Positions 7,496-55,575 of a DNA stretch of 64,000 nucleotides are shown piece by piece. The notes below the pieces were generated by a model that was not told the origin of the DNA, searched no databases, and was given only the letters and a program-made list of their open reading frames with translations. How positions within the stretch are numbered: position 1 is the stretch's first letter; each line of letters opens with the position of its first letter. This DNA comes from an uncultured Candidatus Saccharibacteria bacterium (GTDB lineage: Bacteria > Patescibacteriota > Minisyncoccia > Phycocordibacterales > PALSA-1337). Both the position numbers and the translations under genes were made by a program. The stretch is from contig CAZBVQ010000001.1 of the NCBI GenBank assembly GCA_964495685.1, positions 169,521 to 233,520 of the forward strand. Direction: 5' to 3'.

Positions 7496-9961
7496 TTATT
7501 CAAAATGCGCCTCTTTTCCGTACTGCTCAGCCGCTTTCTTGAGTAGGGGATATTTGTTGAGCATCGCATCTTCACTTATTAATCTGATCGCCTCTGTTCG
7601 TGCCGCTTCGACCATCTTCAAATTTTTGAGTGCCTCCATGGCGACGTCGGAGACGCCCCATTGTCGTAGACCAGAAAGTTCGCCGGCACCACGTTGTGCG
7701 AGATCGAGCTCGGCCAGCTCGAAGCCATTCTTGGCAGTTTGGAGCGCCTTGAGACGCTCCAGGGATTTGGCGGAATTGGTTTCGGTGAATGCGTAACAAT
7801 ACGCTTGGTGACTACTGCGCATGACACGGCCGCGGAGCTGGTGGAGTTGTGAGAGGCCAAATCGTTCTGCACCTTCGATAATAATGACAGTGGCATTGGG
7901 TACATTGACGCCGACTTCGACGACTGAGGTGGCGCAGAGAATATCTATTTTTCCATTCTTGAAATCATCCATGACAGCATCTTTGTCTTCAGGTTTCATT
8001 TTGCTGTGGAGAATACCGATTTCGTAGTGCGGAAATACTGAACGTTTGAGGCGTTTTGCTTCTTCTTTGACTGACTTGGCGATGACGGCTGCCTCTTTGT
8101 CGGGATCTGGCTCATCGATACGTGGACAGATGACATAAAGTTGTCGACCAGCTTCGAGTTCGTGGCGGATTTTGGTATAAGTTTCGTCACGCTTATCAGG
8201 TCTAACAAGTTCGGTAATTATTGGCTTACGACCAGCAGGGGATTGATCGATGAGAGTAAGGTCGAGGTCGCCGTACATTGTTAATGCTAATGTGCGCGGA
8301 ATGGGTGTGGCGGTCATTGAAAGGAGATGTGGAGCGATAGTATCTTTGCGCACCAATTTCCTGCGCTGTGCGATACCGAAACGATGTTGCTCATCGATGA
8401 TGGCGTAAGCAAGATTTTTAAACTTGACTGACTTTTGAATAAGGGCATGTGTGCCTATAAGAACTGAAATGGAGCCTTCTTCAACCCACTTGAGAAGTTG
8501 CGAACGAGAAATATCGGTCCAACCCTTGGGGTTTACCTTGGAAGGAAATTTATAACAGCCGGAACCGGTGATGAGGCCAATCTGTATGGGCATGTAGGAG
8601 AAATATTTCACGAATGACTCGAATTGTTGGGTGGCGAGGATTTCGGTGGGGCACATGTAGGCGACTTGGAGTGGGCCACGGCGAAGAGCGTTTGTTACAA
8701 CCGCGACCTCAGAAGGAATACGGCTCTTGCCGACGCGCGTCAGGGCCTGCTGGCCCTGCGCTATGCTCGCGCCGTCGCGCTCCGCAGTGTCGGCTCGAAC
8801 CGATTCCTTCTGAGGTCGTGACGTCATGACGGCGTATGCGGTGGCTGCGGCAACGGCGGTCTTGCCGGAGCCGACATCTCCTTCGAGGAGGCGTGACATG
8901 GCAGAGCCGCGCTTCATGTCGGTCATAATGGCGTCGATGGCATGCTGTTGGGCATCGGTGGCGACGAAGGGGAAGCGGCGCACGAATTCACGGACATGCT
9001 CGATGTCGGTCTCAATGGTGAAAGCGGGATGCTTCTCATATTCGCGGCGAGCTTGCTGACGCGCGAGCTGGATCATAAATATTTCTTGGAATGAAAAACG
9101 TTTGCGCGCGGCGAGGGCGTCGTCATTATTCATGGGTGTATGAATCCAGATGAGAGCGGTTTTGAGGGTTGGTAGATGATATTTTTCGAGAATGTCGGCA
9201 GGAATGGGGTCGGCGAGCTGGTCGAGGATGCCACTCTTGAATACTTTTTGCAGAGAATGATACATCCAGAGAGAGGTGATGCCGCGGGATTCGCTGTAGA
9301 CGGGATAGAGATTGTGAGATGCACCCGTGTCGCCGAAGAGGGAGTCGCCGACGCCGGTAGGGAGTTTATCGACGAGTTCGAGTTTGGGGTTGGAGAAGTA
9401 GAGTTTTCCGGTAGCATTAGGGACAAGAGTCTCCTCACCCACGATCGACTCGGCTCGCACAACAGAACCGCTCGCCGAGTCGTCTTTTCTCAGCGTCGCC
9501 TGTAGCGGTATGTCTGTTCCTTGATTCCGCGACGCTTCCGAAGAGGGTTCGGAAACTCTGTCCCCAATGCCACCGCTCGCCGATTTCTTCGGTCTTCGTT
9601 CGCTGACTTTGCCTTCGATGCGTACGAGGGCCCCTTCGGGGGTCATCTTGGCGATGTAGGGCTGGTTGAACCAGGTACACTGGATGCGACCAGTCTCGTC
9701 TTCGACGTAGGCAGTGGCCATGGTTATTTTGGTGCGGAATCCTTTGCTGGCTTTGAGGCTGGTGATTTTGCCGTAGATGACGGCAGTGTCACCTTTCTTG
9801 AGTGAGTCGATGGAGCGTGCCTCAGCAGTGTCGCCGTAGCGGACAGGGAAATGATAGAGCAAATCTTCGACGGTATGAACGCTGAGCTTCTTGAGCGCGG
9901 CCTTCTGGATGGGGGTGATGCGGAAGTATTCAGAGACGGGTATGTCGGGAGTGAGGGGCAT
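7496..9961 (-). CDS. recG: ATP-dependent DNA helicase RecG (ORF extends to 10012; likely start MPLTPDIP at ~9961)
   Basis: N-terminus L..L.GVG....KL..LGI.TV.DLL.H.P.RY-like, Walker A GDVGSGKTAVAA, DEQHRFG, MTATPIPRTLALT. An in-frame insert of about 39 aa is encoded by a palindromic element at 8704..8818. Confidence 0.9.
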   Translation of the reverse strand: MPLTPDIPVSEYFRITPIQKAALKKLSVHTVEDLLYHFPVRYGDTAEARSIDSLKKGDTAVIYGKITSLKASKGFRTKITMATAYVEDETGRIQCTWFNQPYIAKMTPEGALVRIEGKVSERRPKKSASGGIGDRVSEPSSEASRNQGTDIPLQATLRKDDSASGSVVRAESIVGEETLVPNATGKLYFSNPKLELVDKLPTGVGDSLFGDTGASHNLYPVYSESRGITSLWMYHSLQKVFKSGILDQLADPIPADILEKYHLPTLKTALIWIHTPMNNDDALAARKRFSFQEIFMIQLARQQARREYEKHPAFTIETDIEHVREFVRRFPFVATDAQQHAIDAIMTDMKRGSAMSRLLEGDVGSGKTAVAAATAYAVMTSRPQKESVRADTAERDGASIAQGQQALTRVGKSRIPSEVAVVTNALRRGPLQVAYMCPTEILATQQFESFVKYFSYMPIQIGLITGSGCYKFPSKVNPKGWTDISRSQLLKWVEEGSISVLIGTHALIQKSVKFKNLAYAIIDEQHRFGIAQRRKLVRKDTIAPHLLSMTATPIPRTLALTMYGDLDLTLIDQSPAGRKPIITELVRPDKRDETYTKIRHELEAGRQLYVICPRIDEPDPDKEAAVIAKSVKEEAKRLKRSVFPHYEIGILHSKMKPEDKDAVMDDFKNGKIDILCATSVVEVGVNVPNATVIIIEGAERFGLSQLHQLRGRVMRSSHQAYCYAFTETNSAKSLERLKALQTAKNGFELAELDLAQRGAGELSGLRQWGVSDVAMEALKNLKMVEAARTEAIRLISEDAMLNKYPLLKKAAEQYGKEAHFE
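8704..8818. repeat. Intragenic GC-rich palindromic element (family A) with 16 nt terminal inverted repeats CGACCTCAGAAGGAAT, in frame within recG
   Basis: The perfect TIRs bracket a core CGAGCATAGCGCAGGGCCAGCAGGCCCTGACGCGCGTCGG that is shared with the element in comF. Local GC is much higher than the flanking sequence, and spurious ORFs appear on both strands (8614..8829, 8624..8821). Confidence 0.75.
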
Positions 9962-10075
9962 GGGGATAGTATATAGGGAAAAAGGGAGGGATGGAAAGAT
10001 TATGTAATACACAATTTCTCCACAAATTCAAAAGGCGCTTGCATTGATGCCCCGTGATATGATACAGGTATTCTC

Positions 10076-10603: not shown

Positions 10604-11471
10604 TACGCAGTCTCTTCTTTTTCAATTCCAAGAAACCTTCTTGGAGTAATGCTTCAATGGCATCTTTGATGCGTAATGACGGTATCTTCGATTTTTGGAA
10701 ATGCGCAGAAATTTCCTCCTCCGTCCTACCTTTCTCCATAATCAGTTTTAATATCCTCGATCTCAATTCACGATTTGATCCCTTGAATGGCTTCTGCTTC
10801 ATATGATGCGCACTTCTGCGTGACGGGTTGGGAAGAGTCTTCTTGAGATATGAACCATAATCCATGAGGGCCCAGTACCATTCACGGGGATTTTTGTTGA
10901 TCCGAGGATCTTGTAGGGCCTTCTCGATGAATGGCATGAGCTGGTCGTCAGTTACTTTCTTGCAAGCTTTCTTACCCTCACGTTTCTCGATTTCAGGGAA
11001 GAAGAAATGAATGAACACCGAACGAATATTGGTCTCGATGAAGGCGATTGGCTTGTTGAATGCAAACGCAAGAATAGAGCCGGCAGTGTTGGGTCCGATA
11101 CCGGGGAGTGCACGCAGTTCGTCGTATGTTTTCGGGAGTAATGAATTGGTGGTAGTTTCTTTTCCAGGAATTTTCTTGGTCCCATTCAGGGAAATCGTCT
11201 CCGCAATACGTTTGAGATACAGTGCGCGTCTGTTGTAGCCGAGGCCCGACCATTCCTGCAAGACTTCTTTGGTCGAAGCTTTGGTAAGTGATTCCCAGTC
11301 GGGGAAGCGGGCGATGAACGAGGTGAACTTTGCAGTCACGCGATGTACCTGTGTCTGCTGAAGCATGATTTCGGAGACGACGATGTAGTAGGGCCGTGTA
11401 TCTCTACGCCACAGCATGTTGCGCTTGTGAGTGCGGTAGTAGGATCGGATGGTGGAGATGAATTTTTTCAT
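10593..11471 (-). CDS. HhH-GPD superfamily DNA glycosylase (MutY/Nth-like, no obvious Fe-S cysteine cluster)
   Basis: N-terminal YYIVVSEIMLQQTQVHRV and helix-hairpin-helix LPGIGPNTAGSILAFAF are typical of the EndoIII/MutY family. Confidence 0.75.
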   Translation of the reverse strand: MKKFISTIRSYYRTHKRNMLWRRDTRPYYIVVSEIMLQQTQVHRVTAKFTSFIARFPDWESLTKASTKEVLQEWSGLGYNRRALYLKRIAETISLNGTKKIPGKETTTNSLLPKTYDELRALPGIGPNTAGSILAFAFNKPIAFIETNIRSVFIHFFFPEIEKREGKKACKKVTDDQLMPFIEKALQDPRINKNPREWYWALMDYGSYLKKTLPNPSRRSAHHMKQKPFKGSNRELRSRILKLIMEKGRTEEEISAHFQKSKIPSLRIKDAIEALLQEGFLELKKKRLRITD

Positions 11472-11588
11472 TGAGGCATAATACCTGATGGATAGAAAAT
11501 ATGTTAATGAAAACTACTCCTTGGTAGGAGCAGTTTTCATCTCTGAGGTATCTTTTGAACATCGATCAGGGGAGAGGGCAGTGATGAA

Positions 11589-15204: not shown

Positions 15205-16404
15205 GTGTCAATGAAAACTATTACCGACAAAGCTCGTATCGAGGAGATGTTCGCTCGTGGCACACTCGTCGAAGCGTATCCTTCCAAGGACGAGCTCATG
15301 AAGAAGCTCCTCTCGGGAGAGCGCATCAAGATCTACTATGGTCTCGATCCGACACACACCGCTATTCACCTCGGTCATGCCAAGAACATGATTTTCCTCG
15401 AGGAGTTGCGTGAGCTCGGTCATGAAGTTGTCATTCTTTTTGGTGACTTCACGGCTACGATAGGGGACCCGTCAGACAAAGCGGCTACCAGGAAACAGCT
15501 CACCACCGACGAGGTCAAGAAGAATATGTCGACATGGCTTACACAGATCAAGCCCCTGGTCAATTTCACTGACAAAGATAATCCGGCTACAGTTGTCACC
15601 AATTCCACCTGGCTTTCAAAGCTCAATTTTGCTGACGTCTTGGATTTGGCCTCAAATTTCACGGTCCAGCAAATGCTTGAGCGCGACATGTTCCAGAAAC
15701 GCCTCAAAAATAATTCACCGATTCACGTCCACGAATTTATGTATCCGCTGATGCAAGGATATGACAGTGTTGCCATGGATGTTGATGCTGAACTCTGTGG
15801 CACCGATCAGACCTTCAATGCGCTCGCTGGTCGCACGCTGGTCAAACGTTACAAAAATAAAGACAAATTCGTTCTCGCTCTCAACCTTGTTGCCAATCCC
15901 AAAACGGGTGAGCTTATGTCCAAGTCAAATGGTACGGGCGTATTCATCGATCAGCCAGCCAACTCACTTTTTGGCGCACTGATGGCGTTGCCGGATCCGA
16001 TGATTGAGCCGTTGTTCGTCAATTGCACACGTATTCCGATGTCAGAAAAGGATGGGCTCATGGCCGCCGGGCCAAGATCAGCCAAGGCACGCGTGGCTTT
16101 CGATATTGTGAAGCGACTCCATGGTGAGAAAGCAGCGCAGGAAGCAGAAAAAGCATTCGAAGATACATTCGCCAAGGGTGGTGTGCCTGATGATGTGCAA
16201 GAAGTGAAGCTTGGTGGTGATTCTGTCGCCGAAGCACTAGTCAAGGCGGGCGTCATTCCTTCCAAGGCAGAGTGGCGACGACTCATTGATGGTGGTGGTA
16301 TCAAGACCGAAGATGATGAGAAGATTACCGATTCACATTTCAAGCCGACAAAAACAATGATTCTCAAAGTGGGGAAGAGGAGGTTTGTGAAGGTTGTTGT
16401 CTAA
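15205..16404 (+). CDS. tyrS: Tyrosine--tRNA ligase (ATG at 15211 likely start)
   Basis: HIGH motif (YYGLDPTHTAIHLGH) and KMSKS motif (GELMSKSNGTG). Confidence 0.95.
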   Translation: MSMKTITDKARIEEMFARGTLVEAYPSKDELMKKLLSGERIKIYYGLDPTHTAIHLGHAKNMIFLEELRELGHEVVILFGDFTATIGDPSDKAATRKQLTTDEVKKNMSTWLTQIKPLVNFTDKDNPATVVTNSTWLSKLNFADVLDLASNFTVQQMLERDMFQKRLKNNSPIHVHEFMYPLMQGYDSVAMDVDAELCGTDQTFNALAGRTLVKRYKNKDKFVLALNLVANPKTGELMSKSNGTGVFIDQPANSLFGALMALPDPMIEPLFVNCTRIPMSEKDGLMAAGPRSAKARVAFDIVKRLHGEKAAQEAEKAFEDTFAKGGVPDDVQEVKLGGDSVAEALVKAGVIPSKAEWRRLIDGGGIKTEDDEKITDSHFKPTKTMILKVGKRRFVKVVV

Positions 16405-17258
16405 TGCGCCACCGACATCCCGCGCACGTTCTTGAAATCCGCTTTTTTCAGTGTCTCAATCGCTTGATACATAGTGCCGCCGGTAGTGATGACATCATCG
16501 ATGACGACTATAGGAGTGTTCCGGTCAAATCGTGAAGCCACTTCCTCATTCACGTCAAACAAATCATGACTGGTACGCACGCGCTCGGCGCGGTTTTTCT
16601 TTTTCTGTTCAGAATTGCGATCGACACGAGTAAGGAGATTATTTTCGCAGGTAAATAGAGATTGGTCCGCTCGGCTCCGTAGTCGATCTATTTCATTGGT
16701 GAGCAATTCACACTGATTATACCCACGCTGATGGCGTCGACGTGTCGTAATCGGCATGGGGAGCAGGAGTGTCTGGGCAGGAAGTGTTCCGAACCGACAC
16801 TGCGGAGCCTCGAGTGCCTGTTCGAGAGGCGAGCATAGCGCAGGGCCAGCAGGCCCTGACGCGCGTCGGTGAGGAACAGCTTCCTGCCCAGACACTCCCA
16901 TCTCCCTCAACATACTCCACAGCGCATACCCTGCAATCTCGACAGCTTCACGGGAACTTTTTTCTTTGATGAGCCAGATGAGACGCGATACGCGCGCATC
17001 TTTGTATGCGAACACGGAACGAGTACCGGGAAGATCGAATGCTAATCCAGAATAATCGGGCGCTGGAGGAAGTGTGCGCAGTGCGTCGACAGGATTCATG
17101 CTCAAGAGATCTTTCTCAGTATCAGAAATAGGGAATAGGGCATCCAATAGTACGTTGTATAAGATTGAGATGAATGACATGCGCCCAGTATAGCAACGGG
17201 TCTTGAAGGCGACGTCAGATTCAGGGTATAGCTTGTGAATATCGGTAGTTATTGCCAT
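16401..17258 (-). CDS. comF: ComF-family phosphoribosyltransferase-domain protein
   Basis: C-terminal PRTase motif VVIDDVITTGGT, in the ComFC/amidophosphoribosyltransferase-like family. It carries an in-frame 123 nt palindromic element (16771..16893). Confidence 0.8.
   Translation of the reverse strand: MAITTDIHKLYPESDVAFKTRCYTGRMSFISILYNVLLDALFPISDTEKDLLSMNPVDALRTLPPAPDYSGLAFDLPGTRSVFAYKDARVSRLIWLIKEKSSREAVEIAGYALWSMLREMGVSGQEAVPHRRASGPAGPALCSPLEQALEAPQCRFGTLPAQTLLLPMPITTRRRHQRGYNQCELLTNEIDRLRSRADQSLFTCENNLLTRVDRNSEQKKKNRAERVRTSHDLFDVNEEVASRFDRNTPIVVIDDVITTGGTMYQAIETLKKADFKNVRGMSVAH
16771..16893. repeat. Intragenic GC-rich palindromic element (family A copy 2) with 14 nt terminal inverted repeats GTCTGGGCAGGAAG, in frame within comF
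   Basis: Shares the core ...CCGACACTGCGGAGC...GCGAGCATAGCGCAGGGCCAGCAGGCCCTGACGCGCGTCGG with the recG copy in reverse orientation. At 123 nt it is exactly 41 codons. Confidence 0.75.
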
Positions 17259-18391
17259 TGCTACAGCGTATATTTACCTGTACACTTACCTCCATGGGCT
17301 TCTTTTCCTCACTTTTCAAGAAAGAAACCAGCGTTTTGGGCGTGGATATAGGATCATCGGCCATCAAGGTCGTTCAGATCAAGAAAAAGCGCGGTCGTGC
17401 CGTACTTGAGACGTACGGCGAGTTGGCGTTGGGTCCTTATGCGGGAGTCGAAATCGGTCGAGCTACACAGATTTCGGCTGACAAAATCATCGAAGCTATC
17501 AAAGATATTCTTAAAGAATCAAAGACTACGACGGGTATGTGCGGTGTGGCGTTACCATTATCATCGAGTCTCATTTCGTTCATTTCCATCCCTCCTGTGC
17601 CTGAGAAACAGATGAGTGACGCGATAACACTCGAAGCACGCAAATACATCCCTGTGCCCCTCTCGGAAGTCCTCCTCGATTGGTCTATTATCCCGAAGGA
17701 AGATTCGTACGTGAATGAAGATGAAGCAGTCAAATCTGAGAAACAGGGTAGCGATGTGCTCGTCGTGGCAATCCACAATCAGTACATCAATGATTATCAA
17801 GCCATCATGGCAGGGAGTAATCTCACTCCAAGTTTCTATGAGATCGAAATTTTCAGTTCTATCCGTGCGGTCGTCGATCAGGGTATCTCGACAGTGATGA
17901 TTATTGACATGGGGGCACGATCGACCAAGTTGTATATTGTCGAACGGGGCATCCTGCGTGCATCTCACATCATCAACAAAGGCAGCCAAGATATTACACT
18001 GGCATTATCGAAGGCGATGAGTATCACCGTGAATGACGCGGAAAATATGAAGCGTACCCACGGTCTCAAGGGTGGCCCTGAATATCGTGAGCTGACGGAA
18101 ATTATTACGGTCAACCTTGATTATATGTTTTATGAAGCCAACGCATCACTGCTCAACTATCAGAAGAAGTTCAACAAAAATGTCAGCAAGGTCATTCTGA
18201 CCGGTGGGGGAGTGCTCCTCAAAGGGTTCACTGACTTGGCGAAAATTAGTTTCCAAACAGATGTGGTATATGCCGATCCGTTCGGTAAACTCGAGACACC
18301 TGCTTTTCTTGCTGAAGAATTCGCCCAAGCAGGCCCCGAATTCGCCGTTGCTATCGGCGTCGCTCTCCGCCGCCTCTCAGAACTTGAGTAA
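17252..18391 (+). CDS. pilM: Type IV pilus assembly protein PilM (likely start ~17294)
   Basis: Actin-like ATPase fold with N-terminal VLGVDIGSSAIKVVQ, first gene of a pilMNOP-like set. Confidence 0.85.
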   Translation: MPLLQRIFTCTLTSMGFFSSLFKKETSVLGVDIGSSAIKVVQIKKKRGRAVLETYGELALGPYAGVEIGRATQISADKIIEAIKDILKESKTTTGMCGVALPLSSSLISFISIPPVPEKQMSDAITLEARKYIPVPLSEVLLDWSIIPKEDSYVNEDEAVKSEKQGSDVLVVAIHNQYINDYQAIMAGSNLTPSFYEIEIFSSIRAVVDQGISTVMIIDMGARSTKLYIVERGILRASHIINKGSQDITLALSKAMSITVNDAENMKRTHGLKGGPEYRELTEIITVNLDYMFYEANASLLNYQKKFNKNVSKVILTGGGVLLKGFTDLAKISFQTDVVYADPFGKLETPAFLAEEFAQAGPEFAVAIGVALRRLSELE

Positions 18392-18394
18392 GAG

Positions 18395-18490
18395 CCCTTA
18401 GCGACACTCTGCCGATATGAACTCGGTACGTATGCCTAACGCACATTTACCACAACGTAACCTTCATATCGGTAGATGTGTCGCTAAGGG
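18395..18490. repeat. Long imperfect inverted repeat (about 27 nt arms) between pilM and pilN
   Basis: CCCTTAGCGACACTCTGCCGATATGAA ... TTCATATCGGTAGATGTGTCGCTAAGGG. Confidence 0.5.
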
Positions 18491-18550
18491 CGCTGTATTG
18501 TTATACACATAGCCGTACTTTGTTCATTCCTGCTATACTTCTAGGGAACT

Positions 18551-29248: not shown

Positions 29249-29258
29249 CGATTCTAGT

Positions 29259-31377
<2,119 letters not shown>

Positions 31378-45002: not shown

Positions 45003-45021
45003 ACACGTACACACGTGTCCC

Positions 45022-45108
45022 CGCACCTCCTCATTCCTTCCTGACAAGCCGAAAATGTAGCCAGCGATCAGCGCTTTGAGGCTTGGAGGGGAGGAATGAG
45101 GACGTGCG
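45022..45108. repeat. 87 nt palindromic intergenic repeat (family B, copy 1)
   Basis: CGCACCTCCTCATTCC...GGAGGAATGAGGACGTGCG with inverted termini. Nearly identical to the copy at 46584..46670. Confidence 0.8.
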
Positions 45109-45164
45109 AGGACGAGCTCCGACAAGTAAACAAATAGAGATAAACGAAGTCTCTGCTATAATAG

Positions 45165-46559
45165 ATGGCAATGAAATCGAGATTGACTCTCGCGGTCGCT
45201 TTTGTCCTGTTGTTTATATGCGCAGGCTCGCTTGGCATGTTTTGGTCCGAGAATGTCGGGGCTGTCGATGCCTCCTCGACAAGCTTTTTTGTTCGTCAAA
45301 ATATCCTGCCCGTGGGCTCCAATAGTTATCCAGGTTCGACTGGTGCGGAACCGTTTTCGACGTCTACATCATTCAAGCTGGTCGGTGCAGGTAGCGAAAC
45401 GGCTGTAGGAACATCCACCTCTTCATCATTTGGTGTCATGGGCGGATTCTTGCGCAGTCTGTACTTCGGTCCAGCGCCACTCTACAATCAGATACATTAT
45501 CATTGGCGCAACGACGATGGCTCAGAGGCGGCGGCTACATCAAAAACAAGTGGTACACCTGATACGGACATTACGTCCTTGGCAAAATCGACCACAGTGC
45601 GTCTGCGCATTGAGATCTCGAATGAAGGCGGTACGAAGCTCGGGTACGCTTCCCAGCAGTTTCGTCTCGAATATGGTCTCAAGTCGACTACGTGCGCGGC
45701 TATAGTCTCGTGGACTGACGTCGGTGCTGCATCTGGAGATTGGGATCCATCGAATTCGAGCAACTTGACTGACGGAAATGACACGACCAATATTGCCGTA
45801 TCTACGGGCGGTGTCGCTGATGAAAATCATACGTTTCTCACCCCGAATGGTGGGGCCAAGGATACGGGTAGTCAGACTGCTGCTGTCAGTGTGACGAGTG
45901 AGCAGTTTATCGAATTGGAATACTCAATTCAGGCCCTATCGGCCGCAACTGATGGGGGAACGTATTGTTTCCGTGTGACGAATGCAGGTGGAGCGACTAC
46001 TCTCTACTCATATACTGCGTATCCACAGGCAACACTCGCATCTTCTGGGGGATACTTATATTTTTCACTCGATGGATCTACAGAGGCCTTCGGTAACATT
46101 ACTCCAGCTGTGCTAGCGGCGACTTCGAGTATTTTGACGGCGAGGACAGACAATTCGACTGGTTTCAATATAACTATTCAGCGAGCAGATTCTACAGGCA
46201 CCATGTCTTCTGGCTCGGTGTATATTCCTGACAAGACTGCATGGGTCCCGGGCGTGAATACGTCATCTGCAGGTAACGCAACAGCTTCGACTACTGAGCC
46301 GCAGACGTTGCAATTTCGTATACGTAATACAGGTACCGATGCGGCCAACTACTCATCTGCATGGTGGGGAACAGACGATACGACAGCCTCTGCCTTGTTC
46401 GCGGGTATCCCATCTACGGCTAGGAATATCGTCGACAGGTCGAGCTCTGCGGTCTCTACTACGACAGCATACGTCTTGTACAACTTGACTGTGCCAGTAA
46501 CTCAGCAAGCGGGCAGTTATTCGGGTAGTATTACCTATACAATTACAGCGAACCCTTGA
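45165..46559 (+). CDS. Secreted Thr/Ser-rich surface protein with C-terminal WxL-like domain
   Basis: Signal peptide. C-terminus AWWGTDD...GSYSGSITYTITANP resembles the WxL-domain C-terminal consensus, and the C-terminal half is paralogous to 46775..47470. Confidence 0.55.
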   Translation: MAMKSRLTLAVAFVLLFICAGSLGMFWSENVGAVDASSTSFFVRQNILPVGSNSYPGSTGAEPFSTSTSFKLVGAGSETAVGTSTSSSFGVMGGFLRSLYFGPAPLYNQIHYHWRNDDGSEAAATSKTSGTPDTDITSLAKSTTVRLRIEISNEGGTKLGYASQQFRLEYGLKSTTCAAIVSWTDVGAASGDWDPSNSSNLTDGNDTTNIAVSTGGVADENHTFLTPNGGAKDTGSQTAAVSVTSEQFIELEYSIQALSAATDGGTYCFRVTNAGGATTLYSYTAYPQATLASSGGYLYFSLDGSTEAFGNITPAVLAATSSILTARTDNSTGFNITIQRADSTGTMSSGSVYIPDKTAWVPGVNTSSAGNATASTTEPQTLQFRIRNTGTDAANYSSAWWGTDDTTASALFAGIPSTARNIVDRSSSAVSTTTAYVLYNLTVPVTQQAGSYSGSITYTITANP

Positions 46560-46583
46560 TGTGGATAACCCGGGGCATACCCC

Positions 46584-46670
46584 CGCACGTCCTCATTCAT
46601 TCCTGACAAGCCGAAAATGTAGCCAGCGATCAGCGCTTTGAGGCTTGGAGGGGAGGAATGAGGACGTGCG
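46584..46670. repeat. 87 nt palindromic intergenic repeat (family B, copy 2)
   Basis: Same orientation as copy 1, and the two copies bracket gene 45165..46559. Flanked by GTGGATAA on both sides. Confidence 0.8.
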
Positions 46671-46774
46671 GGGATACGTGTGGATAAGTGCCTAGGTCTG
46701 TTACGTGATATAATAGAAGAACTGAAATTAGGTTACGTAGTATAATTATTAGTATCGTTTAGTATATCCACATT

Positions 46775-52386: not shown

Positions 52387-54333
52387 ATGAAACGGAAGGC
52401 TGGGAAGGCCATTGCATCGGTACGGACTGCGACGAAAGGGAAACGCGCATCGTCGAGGCTTTCCGCCCCCGCATCTCGCCCCAAAGTGGGCAAACTCAGT
52501 CACAAATACATATTCGTTATCGGTGGTGTCATGTCTGGCGTCGGTAAGGGCGTAGCTACATCATCTATCGGTACACTCTTGGGCGCCAAGGGATTCAAGG
52601 TCAATCTGGTCAAGGTGGATCCGTACTTGAATGTGGATGCTGGCACCATGAATCCGATCGAGCACGGCGAAGTGTTCGTACTCAATTCAGGCCTAGAAAC
52701 AGATCAAGATATGGGCAACTATGAGCGCTTCCTCAATCGTGATCTGACAGGTGACGACTATATTACGAGTGGCATGGTCTATAAGCACGTGATCGAGAAG
52801 GAGCGTGCGCTCGGCTATGGCGGCAAGTGTGTTGAAGCTGTCCCACATATTCGTGATGAGATCGTCAGACGTTTCGAACATTCCGCCAAAGTAAACAAGT
52901 CAGATGTCTCCATCATCGAGATCGGTGGTACAGTCGGTGACTATCAAAACATCATGTTCATCGAGGCGGCACGCGCCCTCAAGATTCGTCACCCGCACGA
53001 TGTGGCTTTCATCATGGTTTCGTATTTGCCGACACCGGGGACGCTCGGTGAGATGAAGACGCGACCGACACAAAATGCGGTGCACCAGCTGGCTTCATAT
53101 GGTGTCACTACTGATATTGTGATTGCTCGTGCCTCGACACCGCTCGATGAGCGCCGCAAAGAGAAGATAGCAACGGCTTGCAATATTTTGTCGCGCCGTG
53201 TCATTTCGGCGCCTGATATCAAGAGTATCTATGATGTACCGGTCAATTTCGAGGCCGATAAGCTGGCAGATATCATCCTCGAAGTGTTGCATGTCGATCG
53301 GGAGACTACGTCTGCGCTCAGTAAGACACCCATCATTTCTCTTGCTGATTGGAAGAAGATGGCGCGCGGCATCAAGAATCGTGATGGGGCAGAGCTCAAT
53401 ATAGCCATCGTGGGCAAGTATTTCAATACAGGAGATTTCGTCCTGACTGATGCGTATCTATCGGTCTTGGAGGCGGTGAAGTTTTCGGCATACGCAGTCG
53501 GAGTGAAGGCCAATATTTATACGATCAATGCGAGGGATTTCGAGAATGAAAAATCATCCACCTTCGCCAAGGCTACGGCGGACAAGAAAGGCAAAGGGCA
53601 AAAGTCCAAACAGGAGACATTCCCGTATGGCAAATTGGATGACATGGACGGCATCATTGTGCCGGGTGGTTTCGGCGAATCTGGTATCGAAGGCAAGCTC
53701 AATGTCATCCGCTACGCTCGTGAGAATGGTATTCCATACTTCGGTCTCTGCTACGGTATGCAGCTCATGACCATCGAGTATGCCCGCAACGTTCTCGGTC
53801 TCAAGGGTGCACATACTGCCGAGATTGATCCGAAGTCGCCACATCTCATCATCGACATCATGCCTGACCAGAAAAAGAAGATTGCTGAGGGCAATTATGG
53901 TGGTTCGATGCGTCTCGGTCTCTATCCGGCCAAATTACTCAAGGGGTCACTTGCGCAGCGTGCGTATTCATATTTCGGCAACACCAAGCTCGATCGCCCG
54001 ACGACCACCATCAAAGAGCGTCACCGCCATCGCTACGAGGTCAATCCTGCCTATATCGAGCGACTGGAGAAGGCGGGTTTGATATTCTCGGGCAAGTCTC
54101 CCAACGGCACTCTGATGGAGATCGCTGAATTGCCCAATGCGATGCACCCCTTCTTCCTCGGTACACAGTTCCATCCGGAGCTTCTGGCACGACCACTTAT
54201 GCCACATCCTTTGTTCACGGAGTTCATGCGCGCTGCGCGGGATCGCAACAAGCAGATGGATCGTGTGGCGCTGATGCAGATCCAGGAGCCTGTTGAGGGT
54301 GATATGATTCGTAACGTTGAGGATGATTTCTAG
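52387..54333 (+). CDS. pyrG: CTP synthase PyrG (annotated ATG gives about 40 aa N-terminal extension; GTG ~52484 possible start)
   Basis: N-terminal KYIFVIGGVMSGVGKG synthase domain and C-terminal glutamine amidotransferase with GLCYGMQ catalytic Cys and the His/Glu region. Confidence 0.95.
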   Translation: MKRKAGKAIASVRTATKGKRASSRLSAPASRPKVGKLSHKYIFVIGGVMSGVGKGVATSSIGTLLGAKGFKVNLVKVDPYLNVDAGTMNPIEHGEVFVLNSGLETDQDMGNYERFLNRDLTGDDYITSGMVYKHVIEKERALGYGGKCVEAVPHIRDEIVRRFEHSAKVNKSDVSIIEIGGTVGDYQNIMFIEAARALKIRHPHDVAFIMVSYLPTPGTLGEMKTRPTQNAVHQLASYGVTTDIVIARASTPLDERRKEKIATACNILSRRVISAPDIKSIYDVPVNFEADKLADIILEVLHVDRETTSALSKTPIISLADWKKMARGIKNRDGAELNIAIVGKYFNTGDFVLTDAYLSVLEAVKFSAYAVGVKANIYTINARDFENEKSSTFAKATADKKGKGQKSKQETFPYGKLDDMDGIIVPGGFGESGIEGKLNVIRYARENGIPYFGLCYGMQLMTIEYARNVLGLKGAHTAEIDPKSPHLIIDIMPDQKKKIAEGNYGGSMRLGLYPAKLLKGSLAQRAYSYFGNTKLDRPTTTIKERHRHRYEVNPAYIERLEKAGLIFSGKSPNGTLMEIAELPNAMHPFFLGTQFHPELLARPLMPHPLFTEFMRAARDRNKQMDRVALMQIQEPVEGDMIRNVEDDF

Positions 54334-54359
54334 GCCGGGTCTGAACAAATGTATTTTAT

Positions 54360-54974: not shown

Positions 54975-55539
54975 AGTCCTAAATATCGACGTTGCTGACA
55001 TTACACGCAAGCTCAAAAAGATTGGCGCCAAGAAGAAGGGTGACTTCTTTTATCGTTCGTGTTCCTTCGACTATGAAGGATTTCCGCTGGATAAGAAGAT
55101 GTCATGGATACGTCTGCGCGATGAGGGCGACAAGGTCCGTCTCGCGTACAAGCGTCGACTGGGTGTGAAATCCAGTAAGGGTGATGATGCTGGCATGGAG
55201 GAGATTGAGTTTGATGTTGGTCACTATGACAAAGCACGGCATTTCCTACACAAGATCGGCCTTATTCTCAAATTTGGCCAGGAGAAGAAACGTACTCGCT
55301 GGGTCAAAGGGAATATTGAGTTTGATATAGATACGTGTCCACGACTGGCGCCTTATCTGGAAATAGAAGGGAAGACCGAGGCTGCGATGAAGCGGGGCAT
55401 CAAGCTACTGGGCATAGATCCCCAAAATTGTAGGCGTTTTTCGACGACACAGCTTTATGAGATGCAAGGTATTCGCGACAAGGACTACATTTCCATGACT
55501 TTCGATGAGTTTGTGAAGAGAGATGGTAAGCGGAAATAA
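54952..55539 (+). CDS. CYTH-domain protein (CyaB-like triphosphate tunnel metalloenzyme / class IV adenylyl cyclase family)
   Basis: N-terminal EHEVKV (ExExK motif), WIRLRDEGDKVRLAYKRR, and C-terminal acidic IEFDID...LEIEG. It overlaps the HD gene by 23 nt. Confidence 0.75.
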   Translation: MTQEHEVKVLNIDVADITRKLKKIGAKKKGDFFYRSCSFDYEGFPLDKKMSWIRLRDEGDKVRLAYKRRLGVKSSKGDDAGMEEIEFDVGHYDKARHFLHKIGLILKFGQEKKRTRWVKGNIEFDIDTCPRLAPYLEIEGKTEAAMKRGIKLLGIDPQNCRRFSTTQLYEMQGIRDKDYISMTFDEFVKRDGKRK

Positions 55540-55575
55540 TTCTAGGTCGGGCCTAGAATTTGCTACAATATAGCC

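What the first reader, a model, noticed from the sequence alone, without database searches (positions are those of the whole stretch)
16771..16893. Second in-frame copy of the same palindromic element inside comF, with different termini
A 123 nt element (exactly 41 codons) has 14 nt terminal inverted repeats GTCTGGGCAGGAAG. These differ from the recG copy, yet the internal approximately 55 nt core is shared, including the hairpin CAGGGCC-AGCA-GGCCCTG. This suggests a family whose conserved core is structural, with variable arms. Both strands of each copy yield spurious ORFs with shared peptides (RRASGPAGPALCS).
Basis: seen in the sequence. Interest (0 to 1): 0.6.

Follow-up and report, generated by a model that had tools for sequence, protein, structure and literature searches.

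The report
Coding palindromic repeat inside comF
A GC-rich, hairpin-forming DNA repeat of about 130 bases sits in-frame inside the comF gene of an uncultured ultra-small (CPR/Patescibacteria) bacterium, with sister copies in recG. It is a counterpart of the Rickettsia palindromic elements, but its outer arms are built from the host gene's own codons.

Summary
Window 16771-16893 is a foldback element inside comF (minus strand, aa 122-163), but its perfect inverted repeat is 19 nt, not 14 (16766-16784 / 16880-16898, 133 nt in all). It shares two identical blocks (15 and 41 nt) with a 115-nt copy in recG (8704-8818).

Six more copies occur in recG of four related Patescibacteria, at two loops. 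The nearest ComF homologs lack the insert. AlphaFold gives pLDDT below 50 only for the N-terminus and residues 126-159, inside the insert, so it is a tolerated loop.

All copies are in-frame and stop-free, so they are translated, not spliced.

The structure covaries strongly: 24 of 45 pairs change on both sides, and 0 of 500 shuffles reach that. G:U and A:C mismatches are equal (11 vs 10), which points to DNA-level complementarity.

The outer arms are site-specific and overlap host-conserved codons. In orthologous copies, synonymous changes in the host arm are mirrored by amino-acid-changing ones in the other arm. There is no target-site duplication and no conserved terminal repeat beyond AGGAA/TTCC.

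Best reading: an RPE-like selfish coding palindrome whose arms are kept complementary by arm-to-arm copying, such as template switching. It is a new variant of a known kind and moderately interesting.

The parts
16766..16898 (+). Complete foldback element in comF (133 nt): 19-nt perfect outer arms plus a 95-nt spacer. The family's 'forward' orientation is on the + strand here, so it is antisense to comF.
   Evidence: I7: 19 nt, 100% complementary, 95 nt between arms; fold z -8.4 as RNA, -9.7 as DNA; covariance model R1 124 bits
16771..16893 (+).
16766..16784 (+). Outer arm, copy-specific. On the comF strand it encodes the LPAQTL codons that align with the host loop motif of insert-free ComF homologs.
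   Evidence: AlphaFold gives confident structure again from residue 160
16880..16898 (+). Outer arm, copy-specific. On the comF strand it encodes G-V-S-G-Q-E at the end of helix 103-123.
16794..16808 (+). Conserved block 1, CCGACACTGCGGAGC (5' half of stem C plus junction), identical in the recG copy
16807..16830 (+). Hairpin A, variable in sequence and length between copies (24 nt here, 12 nt in the recG copy, longer in L020)
16829..16869 (+). Conserved block 2 (41 nt, 100% identical to 8730-8770). It contains hairpin B (16838-16862, loop AGCA) and the 3' half of stem C (GTCGG).
   Evidence: (I1); hairpin B covaries between genomes
16401..17258 (-). Host gene: comF/ComFC-type phosphoribosyltransferase-family protein, 285 aa. 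The insert is aa 122-163.
8704..8818 (-). Sister copy in recG (115 nt, 16-nt perfect arms). It is read in the forward frame as RPQKESVRADTAERDGASIAQGQQALTRVGKSRIPSEV.
   Evidence: I11; 134.6 bits
7496..10012 (-). Host gene recG. The copy sits between helicase motif I (GDVGSGKT) and motif Ia (PTE).

Best explanation
This is one copy of a small family of GC-rich foldback repeats, about 115-165 nt long, found in a narrow group of Patescibacteria (CPR; Parcubacteria/Paceibacteria by the names of homologs). The copies sit in-frame in permissive surface loops of conserved proteins: the ComF loop just before the first strand of the PRTase fold, and two loops of RecG. They are translated as disordered stretches of about 35-45 aa. 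Functionally this is the CPR counterpart of the Rickettsia palindromic elements: a selfish or neutral passenger, not a host device.

The unit that is copied between sites and homogenised within a genome is the centre. It comprises stem CCGAC/GTCGG enclosing a variable hairpin A and a conserved hairpin B, bracketed by AGGAA...TTCC.

The outer 'terminal inverted repeats' are not transposon ends. They differ at every site. One arm overlaps host codons and the other is its mirror image. I infer that they are kept complementary by DNA-level arm-to-arm copying, either replication template switching or intra-palindrome gene conversion. The same process can invert the spacer and can extend the palindrome into the flanks.

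Shown: the anatomy, family membership, absence from close orthologs, in-frame translation requirement, covariation, host-codon overlap of the arms, spacer inversion between species, and intragenomic similarity of cores.

Inferred: the copying mechanism, and the absence of a host function.
For: Family and anatomy
- There are 8 copies with the same three-way-junction fold: 2 in the window and 6 in L020, L031, L032 and L033.

Insertion, not ancestral sequence
- The nearest ComF homologs lack the insert.
- Minimal RecG forms have 32 aa between GDVGSGKT and PTE, against 80 in the window.
- The alignment to the solved RecG 1gm5 breaks exactly at both loops.

Tolerated loop
- The ComF AlphaFold model has mean pLDDT 80. 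Only residues 1-23 and 126-159 fall below 50. The insert is flanked by helix 103-123 and strand 163-167.

Translated, not spliced
- All 11 analysed inserts keep the frame and have no stop codon.

Pairing is maintained
- 88.9% of cells are paired, against about 37% when the partners are slid.
- 24 of 45 pairs change on both sides. 0 of 500 shuffles reach the observed score.

The complementarity is at the DNA level
- Among non-Watson-Crick cells, G:U = 11 and A:C = 10.

The arms are host-derived and co-converted
- At recG site 1, the left arm is the conserved SERRAKKP codons.
- L033 differs from L020 by two synonymous changes there (CGG>CGT, GCA>GCG).
- Each is mirrored in the right arm by a non-synonymous change (P>H, L>S).
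- In the window recG copy both arms changed in concert relative to orthologs, from EGAE to SEVA.

Not a classical MITE
- The outer arms of the two window copies are 28% identical.
- The flanks are inverted complements, not direct repeats.

Spacer inversion
- The ComF inserts of L020 and L022 are reverse complements of each other between conserved arms: 94/111 identical as reverse complement against 72 when read directly.

Intragenomic copying
- The L033 recG site-2 core is 91% identical to L033 site 1, but only 72% identical to its ortholog in L020.
- The two window copies share blocks that are 100% identical.

Literature
- Template switching is documented to homogenise inverted-repeat arms, invert spacers and create or maintain hairpins (abstracts of PMC8604942 and PMC8794818, listed).
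- RPE properties come from PMC10969869.
Against: - No copying event was observed directly, and no polymorphic (empty versus filled, or flipped) site was seen within one population. All cluster members of the window's ComF carry the insert.
- Only about 200 kb of related sequence could be searched, and all copies found are in recG or comF. Those are the genes used to fetch the loci, so copy number and the intragenic fraction are unknown.
- Public scans gave no further copies.
- A peptide-profile search of 1.84 billion representatives found one extra protein, P0126.
- Several unpaired positions (ATA junction, AGCA loop, bulged A) are invariant in all 8 copies. Arm-to-arm copying does not explain this. 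It suggests sequence-specific recognition by something.
- Frame arithmetic does not discriminate between the two border models. Both a 123-nt unit and 114 nt (spacer plus one arm) are multiples of three.
Confidence: 0.6

Rival explanations
1. A classical non-autonomous transposon (MITE) with about 14-nt terminal inverted repeats, moved by a transposase encoded elsewhere in the genome. Under this reading the different termini are just diverged subfamilies.
For: - The size is short, there are terminal inverted repeats, and there are several copies at unrelated sites.
- A short conserved end, AGGAA...TTCC, is present in all 8 copies.
- A Y1 (RAYT-like) transposase flanked by hairpin repeats exists in a relative, L029.
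Against: - The outer arms of the two copies in the same genome are only 28% identical, while the centre has blocks that are 100% identical.
- The perfect repeat runs into host-conserved codons.
- There is no direct target-site duplication.
- No homolog of the L029 Y1 transposase is found in the 64-kb window by tblastn.
- The L029 repeats are unrelated in sequence.
Confidence: 0.12
2. A host-beneficial nucleic-acid signal embedded in coding sequence. It could be an mRNA structure (an RNase III-type processing or stability site, or a translational pause) or a DNA site bound by a specific protein, and it would be conserved because it regulates recG and comF.
For: - The fold is very stable and there is strong covariation.
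- Unpaired junction and loop bases are invariant in 8 copies, from species whose recG third codon positions are only about 50-60% identical.
- One orthologous pair has an 86/86 identical core against 82% in the host gene (P about 5e-8).
- Both host genes act in DNA recombination or uptake.
Against: - There is no strand asymmetry in wobble pairs (G:U 11 vs A:C 10).
- The comF copy is antisense relative to the recG copies.
- Close relatives lack the element at the same sites: L030 at recG site 2, L032 at recG site 1, and P0006/P0007 in comF.
- The same loops hold unrelated inserts in other lineages.
- Most orthologous cores are no better conserved than the host gene.
- There is no Rfam match.
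Confidence: 0.12
3. An intragenic inverton: the segment between the inverted repeats is flipped by a recombinase to switch between two protein isoforms.
For: - The element is an inverted-repeat-flanked segment inside genes.
- The flipped comF and recG copies of the window would both stay open.
- A spacer inversion did occur between two related species at the ComF loop.
Against: - 4 of 11 copies acquire a stop codon when flipped, no better than control frames.
- All RecG copies seen in 120 homologs use one orientation and frame.
- All database members of the window's ComF cluster have the same orientation.
- The insert is a disordered loop with no obvious isoform function.
Confidence: 0.06
4. 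Not mobile at all: these are lineage-specific loops that became palindromic in place through template switching. On this reading the recG and comF segments resemble each other only through later gene conversion.
For: - The arms are host-derived.
- Copy number is low and every copy is in one of three loops.
- There is evidence for intragenomic homogenisation.
Against: - Gene conversion needs pre-existing similarity. The comF copy is absent from the closest ComF homologs, yet it carries the full 56-nt identical core. This means the core was copied into a new site at least once.
- P0126 carries the peptide in yet another protein context.
Confidence: 0.07
5. An assembly artefact: a fold-back chimera created by the assembler.
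For: Palindromes do disturb assembly. The scaffold gap of 100 N in L021 (12170-12269) falls where the recG site-2 copy is expected.
Against: The same ComF sequence is present in 5 contigs, from ENA, NCBI and JGI sources. Related copies occur in independent assemblies, always in-frame.
Confidence: 0.01

Closest known systems
Rickettsia palindromic elements (RPEs)
   Same: Both are palindromic repeats of about 100-150 bp, present in several copies. Both are inserted in-frame in unrelated housekeeping genes, add a conserved peptide to the host protein, and are compatible with its fold (PMC10969869). In both cases the host is a reduced-genome, host-dependent bacterium.
   Different: - The phylum is different (Patescibacteria) and sequence relatedness was not tested.
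- Far fewer copies were seen here.
- The outer arms are site-specific and overlap host codons.
- The arms co-vary at the cost of amino-acid changes.
- A spacer inversion between species is documented here.

Whether RPEs share these last features was not checked.
Coding palindromes in Nematomorpha mitochondrial genes (PMC6649704)
   Same: Both are long perfect inverted repeats embedded in functional protein-coding genes, with both arms translated, so stringent secondary structure and coding coexist (abstract).
   Different: In Nematomorpha both arms encode conserved protein regions and no shared mobile core is described. Here the arms flank a repeated core and lie in a dispensable loop.
Hairpins made and maintained by template switching (PMC8794818; PMC8604942)
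   Same: Both show homogenisation of inverted-repeat arms, multi-nucleotide compensatory changes arising in one step, and spacer inversion. These are the signatures seen in the arms and in the ComF loop of L020 versus L022.
   Different: Those studies describe a mutational process, not a repeat family. It does not by itself explain how the core reached comF.
MITEs and REP/RAYT elements
   Same: Both are small, non-coding-capacity, hairpin-forming repeats. A RAYT with REPs exists in a relative.
   Different: Here there are no conserved terminal repeats beyond AGGAA/TTCC and no direct target duplication. The element is longer than REPs and intragenic rather than extragenic, and no RAYT is present in the window.
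Intragenic invertons
   Same: Both are segments bounded by inverted repeats inside a coding gene, and both orientations can be open.
   Different: There is no evidence of reversible switching. Flipping introduces stop codons in 4 of 11 copies.

Membership tests
RPE-like coding palindromic repeats (functional class) | Repeated palindromic unit of about 100-150 bp with a shared sequence | tested here: met
   There are 2 copies in the window and 6 in relatives, scoring 91-140 bits with model R1.
RPE-like coding palindromic repeats (functional class) | Inserted in-frame in protein genes and absent from orthologs | tested here: met
   All copies are in-frame and stop-free. The insert is absent from the nearest ComF homologs and from minimal RecG forms.
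RPE-like coding palindromic repeats (functional class) | Insert lies in a surface loop compatible with the host fold | tested here: met
   AlphaFold gives pLDDT below 50 only for residues 1-23 and 126-159, and the flanking secondary structure is intact. This is a prediction only.
Rickettsia RPE families proper | Sequence homology to one of the described RPE families | not tested
Rfam found nothing, and neither did blastn against plasmids and phages.
MITE | Terminal inverted repeats conserved between copies | tested here: not met
   The outer 16 nt per side are 28% identical between the two window copies. Only AGGAA/TTCC is shared.
MITE | Direct target-site duplication | tested here: not met
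   The flanks GGAGT/ACTCC are inverted complements. The recG flanks are CG/CG, which is self-complementary and therefore uninformative.
MITE | Cognate transposase in the genome | not testable with these tools
   Only 64 kb of the 521-kb contig is held. There is no Y1 transposase homolog in the window, and other transposase families were not screened.
REP/RAYT | Extragenic palindromes of 20-40 bp associated with a RAYT gene | tested here: not met
   The element is 115-133 nt and intragenic, and the window has no RAYT.
Intragenic inverton | Inverted-repeat-flanked segment inside a gene | tested here: met
Intragenic inverton | Both orientations present in one population | not testable with these tools
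   There was no access to reads. All ComF cluster members have one orientation.
Intragenic inverton | Both orientations preserve the reading frame without stop codons | tested here: inconclusive
   7 of 11 copies stay open when flipped, similar to the control frames.
Intron or intein (removed after transcription or translation) | No requirement for frame and open reading (intron); Hint-domain splicing motifs (intein) | tested here: not met
   All 11 inserts are in-frame and stop-free. The insert is 41 aa with no domain hit, and Pfam finds only PRTase families in ComF. No Rfam intron or ribozyme was found.
Known structured RNA (Rfam 15) | Score at or above a family's gathering threshold | tested here: not met
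   There were no hits at the elements at gathering thresholds. In E-value mode only chance-level matches appeared, at E 0.65-4.9.

The most novel reading that the evidence does not exclude
The element could be a new kind of self-propagating palindrome that needs no transposase. On this reading a conserved two-hairpin seed is copied to new sites and then grows outward by replication template switching, conscripting host codons as its arms. Alternatively, the invariant unpaired bases of the seed could be the recognition site of an undescribed CPR enzyme, such as a nuclease or recombinase acting on hairpin DNA. That would make these coding palindromes the footprint of a new mobility or DNA-processing system in bacteria that depend on DNA uptake.
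Probability: 0.2. Interest if true: 0.8.

Novelty: new variant of a known kind. Interest (0 to 1): 0.55.

Why it matters
Coding palindromic repeats have mainly been described in Rickettsia. Finding the same phenomenon in Patescibacteria, another lineage with reduced genomes and dependent lifestyles, suggests it recurs under genome reduction and is not a Rickettsia curiosity.

Full-text searches combining CPR names with 'miniature inverted-repeat' or with 'palindromic' and 'in-frame' listed no paper on such elements in CPR.

The copies give an unusually clean natural record of how a DNA palindrome and a reading frame co-evolve. Synonymous changes in a constrained arm are mirrored by amino-acid changes in the free arm. 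Spacers are inverted between sister species, and cores are homogenised within genomes.

There are practical consequences too. These inserts inflate and diversify conserved proteins such as RecG and ComF in CPR genomes, break assemblies (a scaffold gap falls where one copy is expected), and can mislead alignment-based annotation and phylogeny.

Tried and rejected
- **Genome scan.** The hairpin-B pattern scanned against 185,579 species genomes gave 18 loci. All were chance matches in high-GC Proteobacteria and Actinobacteria with unrelated flanks.
- **Other DNA searches.** Two metagenome scans with exact and degenerate core patterns gave 0 hits. A viral-contig scan gave 0. blastn against plasmids and phages gave none.
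- **Six-frame peptide query.** Searching a six-frame peptide concatenation of both copies against 5.8 billion proteins returned only ComF itself.
- **Peptide profile.** A peptide profile searched against 1.84 billion representatives gave one true extra hit (P0126) and four repeat-protein false positives. Clustering at 50% identity hides inserts in conserved proteins.
- **Rfam.** Nothing was found at gathering thresholds or in E-value mode.
- **Mobilising enzyme.** A RAYT-like Y1 transposase with flanking REPs was found in relative L029, but there is no homolog in the window and its repeats are unrelated.
- **Ultra-conserved core.** This idea holds for one orthologous pair (86/86). It does not hold in general, because other orthologous pairs are 72-91% identical, like the host gene. 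I dropped it in favour of intragenomic copying.
- **Selection for invertibility.** The idea that both orientations are kept open was not supported.
- **Frame arithmetic.** I used it to try to decide between a whole 123-nt element and a spacer plus one mirrored arm. Both fit for the comF copy, and older copies fit neither cleanly.
- **Other long local inverted repeats in the window.** 45017-45113, 46578-46676, 29258-29299 and 18391-18494 are intergenic and unrelated in sequence.
Full report

Yes. Window 16771-16893 reads GTCTGGGCAGGAAG ... CTTCCTGCCCAGAC. The perfect inverted repeat is in fact 19 nt long: GGAGTGTCTGGGCAGGAAG / CTTCCTGCCCAGACACTCC at 16766-16784 and 16880-16898. There are 95 nt between the arms, giving a 133-nt palindrome.

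The element lies inside a 285-aa ORF on the minus strand (16401-17258). That ORF has weak PRTase-family Pfam hits at its C-terminus, and its homologs are named ComF/ComFC. The element occupies residues 122-163, in-frame and without a stop codon.

The sister copy is in recG (ORF 7496-10012, minus strand) at 8704-8818. It has 16-nt perfect arms, CGACCTCAGAAGGAAT, with 83 nt between them. The two copies share a 41-nt block at 100% identity (16829-16869 with 8730-8770) and the 15-nt block CCGACACTGCGGAGC. The outer arms and one internal hairpin differ.

The motif CAGGGCC-AGCA-GGCCCTG occurs only at these two places, against 0.01 expected. Both copies fold far better than shuffled controls, as RNA (z -6.7 to -9.9) and as DNA (z -8.5 and -9.7).

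On the chromosome the two copies are inverted relative to each other, while both host genes are on the minus strand. RecG therefore reads the element 'forward' (...ADTAERDGASIAQGQQALTRVG...) and ComF reads its reverse complement (...RRASGPAGPALCSPLEQALEAPQCR...).

**2. Source and relatives**

The identical ComF is encoded on five public contigs. The one retrieved is ENA ERZ27309394 k141_127337 (521,699 bp), and the longest on record is 700,686 bp. Named homologs of ComF and RecG come from Patescibacteria: Parcubacteria, Paceibacterota and Taylorbacteria. The gene neighbourhood is typical of these bacteria, with a type IV pilus cluster and an aminoacyl-tRNA synthetase (tRNA-synt_1b family).

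**3. It is an insertion**

In an alignment of 24 ComF homologs, the closest ones lack the segment. These are P0006 at 66% identity, P0007, and P0008-11, 14, 16 and 17. The loop between the GYALW helix and the (V/I)IPMPIT strand is otherwise 12-18 aa.

An AlphaFold model built on that alignment has mean pLDDT 80. Only residues 1-23 and 126-159 fall below 50. The insert is bracketed by helix 103-123 and strand 163-167, so it is a disordered excursion of a surface loop just before the PRTase fold.

For RecG, 120 homologs range from 718 to 864 aa, and nearly all the length variation sits in two loops. Site 1 lies between RIEGKVSERRxKK and LYFSNPK. Site 2 lies between helicase motif I (GDVGSGKT) and PTE. 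Minimal forms have 21 and 32 residues across these landmarks, where the window's protein has 80 and 80. The alignment to the solved RecG of Thermotoga (1gm5) breaks at exactly these two places.

**4. It is a family**

A profile of the two window copies found six more copies in related genomes:
- L020 15784-15892 (recG site 1) and 16514-16660 (site 2)
- L031 4741-4860 (site 2)
- L032 2378-2486 (site 2)
- L033 620-728 (site 1) and 1393-1498 (site 2), plus a partial tandem piece at 1349-1385

All fold into the same architecture. A long outer stem leads to an inner stem beginning AGGAA/TTCC, then stem CCGAC/GTCGG, then a three-way junction with a variable hairpin A and a conserved hairpin B with loop AGCA. 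A covariance model built from the eight copies scores them at 91-140 bits. It found no further full copy in 198 kb of held sequence.

The family peptide ASIAQ(G/S)QQALTRVG appears at site 1 or site 2 of about 14 of the 120 RecG homologs, always in the same orientation and frame. The comF copy is the only one seen in the opposite orientation.

Searches outside this clade gave almost nothing:
- The genome-collection scan gave only chance matches in high-GC genomes.
- Metagenome, viral, plasmid and phage searches were empty.
- A peptide profile searched against 1.84 billion representatives found one more protein, P0126.
- Rfam has no matching family.

The family is real but, as far as I could search, small and confined to a narrow lineage. 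These negatives are weak, because the collections evidently do not hold these genomes.

**5. The structure is maintained, and at the DNA level**

I tested a 45-pair structure on the eight-copy alignment.
- 88.9% of cells are standard pairs, against 29-38% when the partners are slid by 1-3 columns.
- 24 pairs show changes on both sides.
- 0 of 500 shuffles reach the observed covariation score.
- Hairpin B alone shows CAGGGCC/GGCCCTG, CAGGGCG/CGCCCTG and CAAAGCC/GGCTTTG in different copies.

Among non-Watson-Crick cells, G:U (11) and A:C (10) are equal. A structure selected in RNA from one strand should tolerate G:U but not A:C. The symmetry, together with the antisense comF copy, points to complementarity kept at the DNA level.

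**6. The 'terminal repeats' are not transposon ends**

Going outward from the centre, the sequence becomes progressively copy-specific. The centre is shared, the inner 6-bp stem differs with compensation, AGGAA/TTCC is shared, and the outermost 10-19 nt are unique to each site. The outer arms are 28% identical between the two window copies, against 85% for the core. The flanks are inverted complements, not direct repeats, so there is no target-site duplication.

The outer arms overlap host codons. At recG site 1 the left arm is the conserved SERRAKKP coding sequence, which is present in RecGs with no insert.

The orthologous site-1 copies of L020 and L033 differ in that arm by two synonymous changes, CGG>CGT and GCA>GCG. 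The L020 states are shared by relatives: CGG by L032 and GCA by L031. Each change is mirrored exactly in the right arm, where it changes the amino acid (P>H and L>S).

In the window's recG copy, both arms differ in concert from the orthologs, turning IPEGAEVI into IPSEVAVV and making the stem perfect. In comF, the arm next to the beta-strand encodes LPAQTL. This aligns with the (S)(F/L)PxP motif found in both filled and empty ComF loops.

One arm is therefore largely host sequence, and the other is its mirror.

**7. Dynamics**

- **Spacer inversion.** ComF proteins of another subclade (P0012, 13, 15, 18, 19, 22, 35, 40) carry a different palindromic insert at the same loop. In three of them (L020, L022, L024) the DNA was examined and the right arm is the conserved VVVIP codons. 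Between L020 and L022, whose genomes have RecG 94% identical, the spacer is inverted: 94/111 identical as reverse complement against 72 when read directly. The covariance model hits the L024 insert at 55 bits on the opposite strand, so this second family is probably a distant relative.
- **Intragenomic copying.** The L033 site-2 core is 91% identical to L033 site 1 but only 72% identical to its ortholog in L020. The window's two copies share blocks that are 100% identical, although their arms are unrelated.
- **Loss.** L030, the closest RecG to the window's (89% aa), has only RPKTRTPGGAE at site 2, and L032 has no family copy at site 1.
- **Hot spots.** The same loops hold unrelated inserts in other lineages, including the window's own recG site 1.

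**8. Translated, not spliced**

All 11 inserts examined keep the host frame and contain no stop codon. An element removed from the RNA would not need to. Flipping would keep the frame open in 7 of 11, which is no better than control frames. So there is no sign of selection for invertibility.

**9. Best explanation**

This is an RPE-like selfish or neutral coding palindrome. Survivors are seen only where a disordered loop is tolerated.

The copied unit is the two-hairpin centre. The arms are generated and kept complementary by arm-to-arm copying during replication, that is, by template switching or intra-palindrome conversion. That process is known to homogenise inverted-repeat arms, to invert spacers, and to create and maintain hairpins (PMC8604942 and PMC8794818). 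It accounts for four things here: the perfect arms in host codons, the multi-nucleotide concerted changes, the G:U/A:C symmetry, and the L020/L022 inversion.

Two things remain unexplained. First, how the centre reached comF. Second, why unpaired junction and loop bases are invariant in all eight copies. The latter leaves room for a sequence-specific factor.

My confidence in the overall reading is about 0.6. My confidence in template switching specifically is lower, about 0.4.

**10. Rivals**

- **Classical MITE (0.12).** It fails on conserved terminal repeats and on target duplication.
- **Functional RNA or DNA signal (0.12).** It is favoured by the invariant unpaired bases and by one 86/86 orthologous pair. 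It is disfavoured by the antisense copy, the wobble symmetry, the frequent loss, and the ordinary conservation of the other pairs.
- **Inverton (0.06).**
- **In-place origin without mobility (0.07).**
- **Assembly artefact (0.01).** It is excluded by independent assemblies.

**11. Comparison with known systems, and novelty**

The closest known kind is the Rickettsia palindromic element (properties from PMC10969869). Coding palindromes of Nematomorpha mitochondria (PMC6649704) are a second analogue. From my own knowledge, mitochondrial GC clusters and double-hairpin elements of fungi are also similar in spirit. I did not check them.

Full-text searches combining CPR names with 'miniature inverted-repeat', or with 'palindromic' and 'in-frame', listed no paper on such elements in CPR.

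I rate this a new variant of a known kind. The sequence family and the phylum are new, and the arm behaviour (host-derived, co-converted) is not part of the usual MITE or RPE description.

**12. Limits**

Only 64 kb of the source genome and about 135 kb from relatives could be read, and those loci were fetched through comF and recG. Copy number, the intragenic fraction, and the presence of a mobilising enzyme therefore remain open. No read-level, transcript or protein data were available.

Noticed in passing
window 9412-9592 (minus strand, recG site 1): The window's recG carries a second, unrelated insert of about 55 aa (DRVSEPSSEASRN...DSASGSVVRAESIVGEE) in the wedge-domain loop. It is shared with P0130, P0131, P0134, P0140 and P0141. 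It is only weakly structured (DNA fold z -1.9). In L020 and L033 the same loop holds a copy of the comF/recG family instead.
   Followed up: partly
window 45010-45113 and 46578-46682: Two intergenic copies, 97% identical, of a different palindromic repeat of about 100 nt. Its arms are about 39-40 nt at about 80% complementarity with a 19-nt loop. They flank ORF 45165-46559, a secreted-looking repeat protein.
   Followed up: partly
window 29258-29299; also 54320-54352 and 55532-55564: A perfect 42-nt palindrome, TCCCAGGCCCGGCCTAGAATT|AATTCTAGGCCGGGCCTGGGA, lies between two ORFs. Related half-sites (TTCTAGGCCGGGYCT) occur at two other gene ends. It may be a terminator or a REP-like motif.
   Followed up: no
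window 18391-18407 / 18478-18494: A 17-nt inverted repeat (94% complementary) with a 70-nt spacer lies directly after the pilM-like ORF, in the intergenic region.
   Followed up: no
L020 10001-10771, L022 10001-10798, L024 10001-10843 (comF): A second palindromic insert family occupies the same ComF loop in another subclade. Its right arm is the conserved VVVIP codons. Its spacer is inverted between L020 and L022, and the central hairpin again has a CTGCTG/CAGCAG loop. Model R1 hits the L024 copy at 55 bits.
   Followed up: partly
L029 960-1547: A RAYT-like Y1 transposase gene (PF01797) sits inside the pilus cluster of a relative. It is flanked by REP-like hairpins, GTACGCAGGTCTACCCTGCGGA. They are unrelated in sequence to the element studied.
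   Followed up: partly
L021 12170-12269: A 100-N scaffold gap in NCBI assembly GCA_964412585.1 falls where the recG site-2 palindrome is expected, about 730 nt after the site-1 copy at 11450-11558. It splits the recG gene call in two. The palindromes seem to break assemblies.
   Followed up: partly
L033 1349-1385: A partial tandem duplication of the left part of the element (AAGGAACTGGCCATTGCCGACATTACG) lies just upstream of the full recG site-2 copy. It adds KELAIADITKPKTR to the protein.
   Followed up: no
P0126 (92 aa; no DNA fetched): This is the only extra protein found with the family peptide (MTLADTAQRDGASIAQSQQTLTRVGENRV...). The ORF seems to start inside an element, so it may be a miscalled gene or a copy in another context.
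   Followed up: no
RecG homologs P0144/P0145, P0146/P0148, P0224/P0225, P0183-P0247 (sites 1 and 2): Several further recurrent insert families occupy the same two RecG loops across Patescibacteria. Examples are AGGESSLDLSE.KRRHP.GWADGGQSTLAP, and LDRSNAKPLLKPSQK.VRS at site 2. Insertion into these loops is a clade-wide phenomenon, not a peculiarity of this genome.
   Followed up: no
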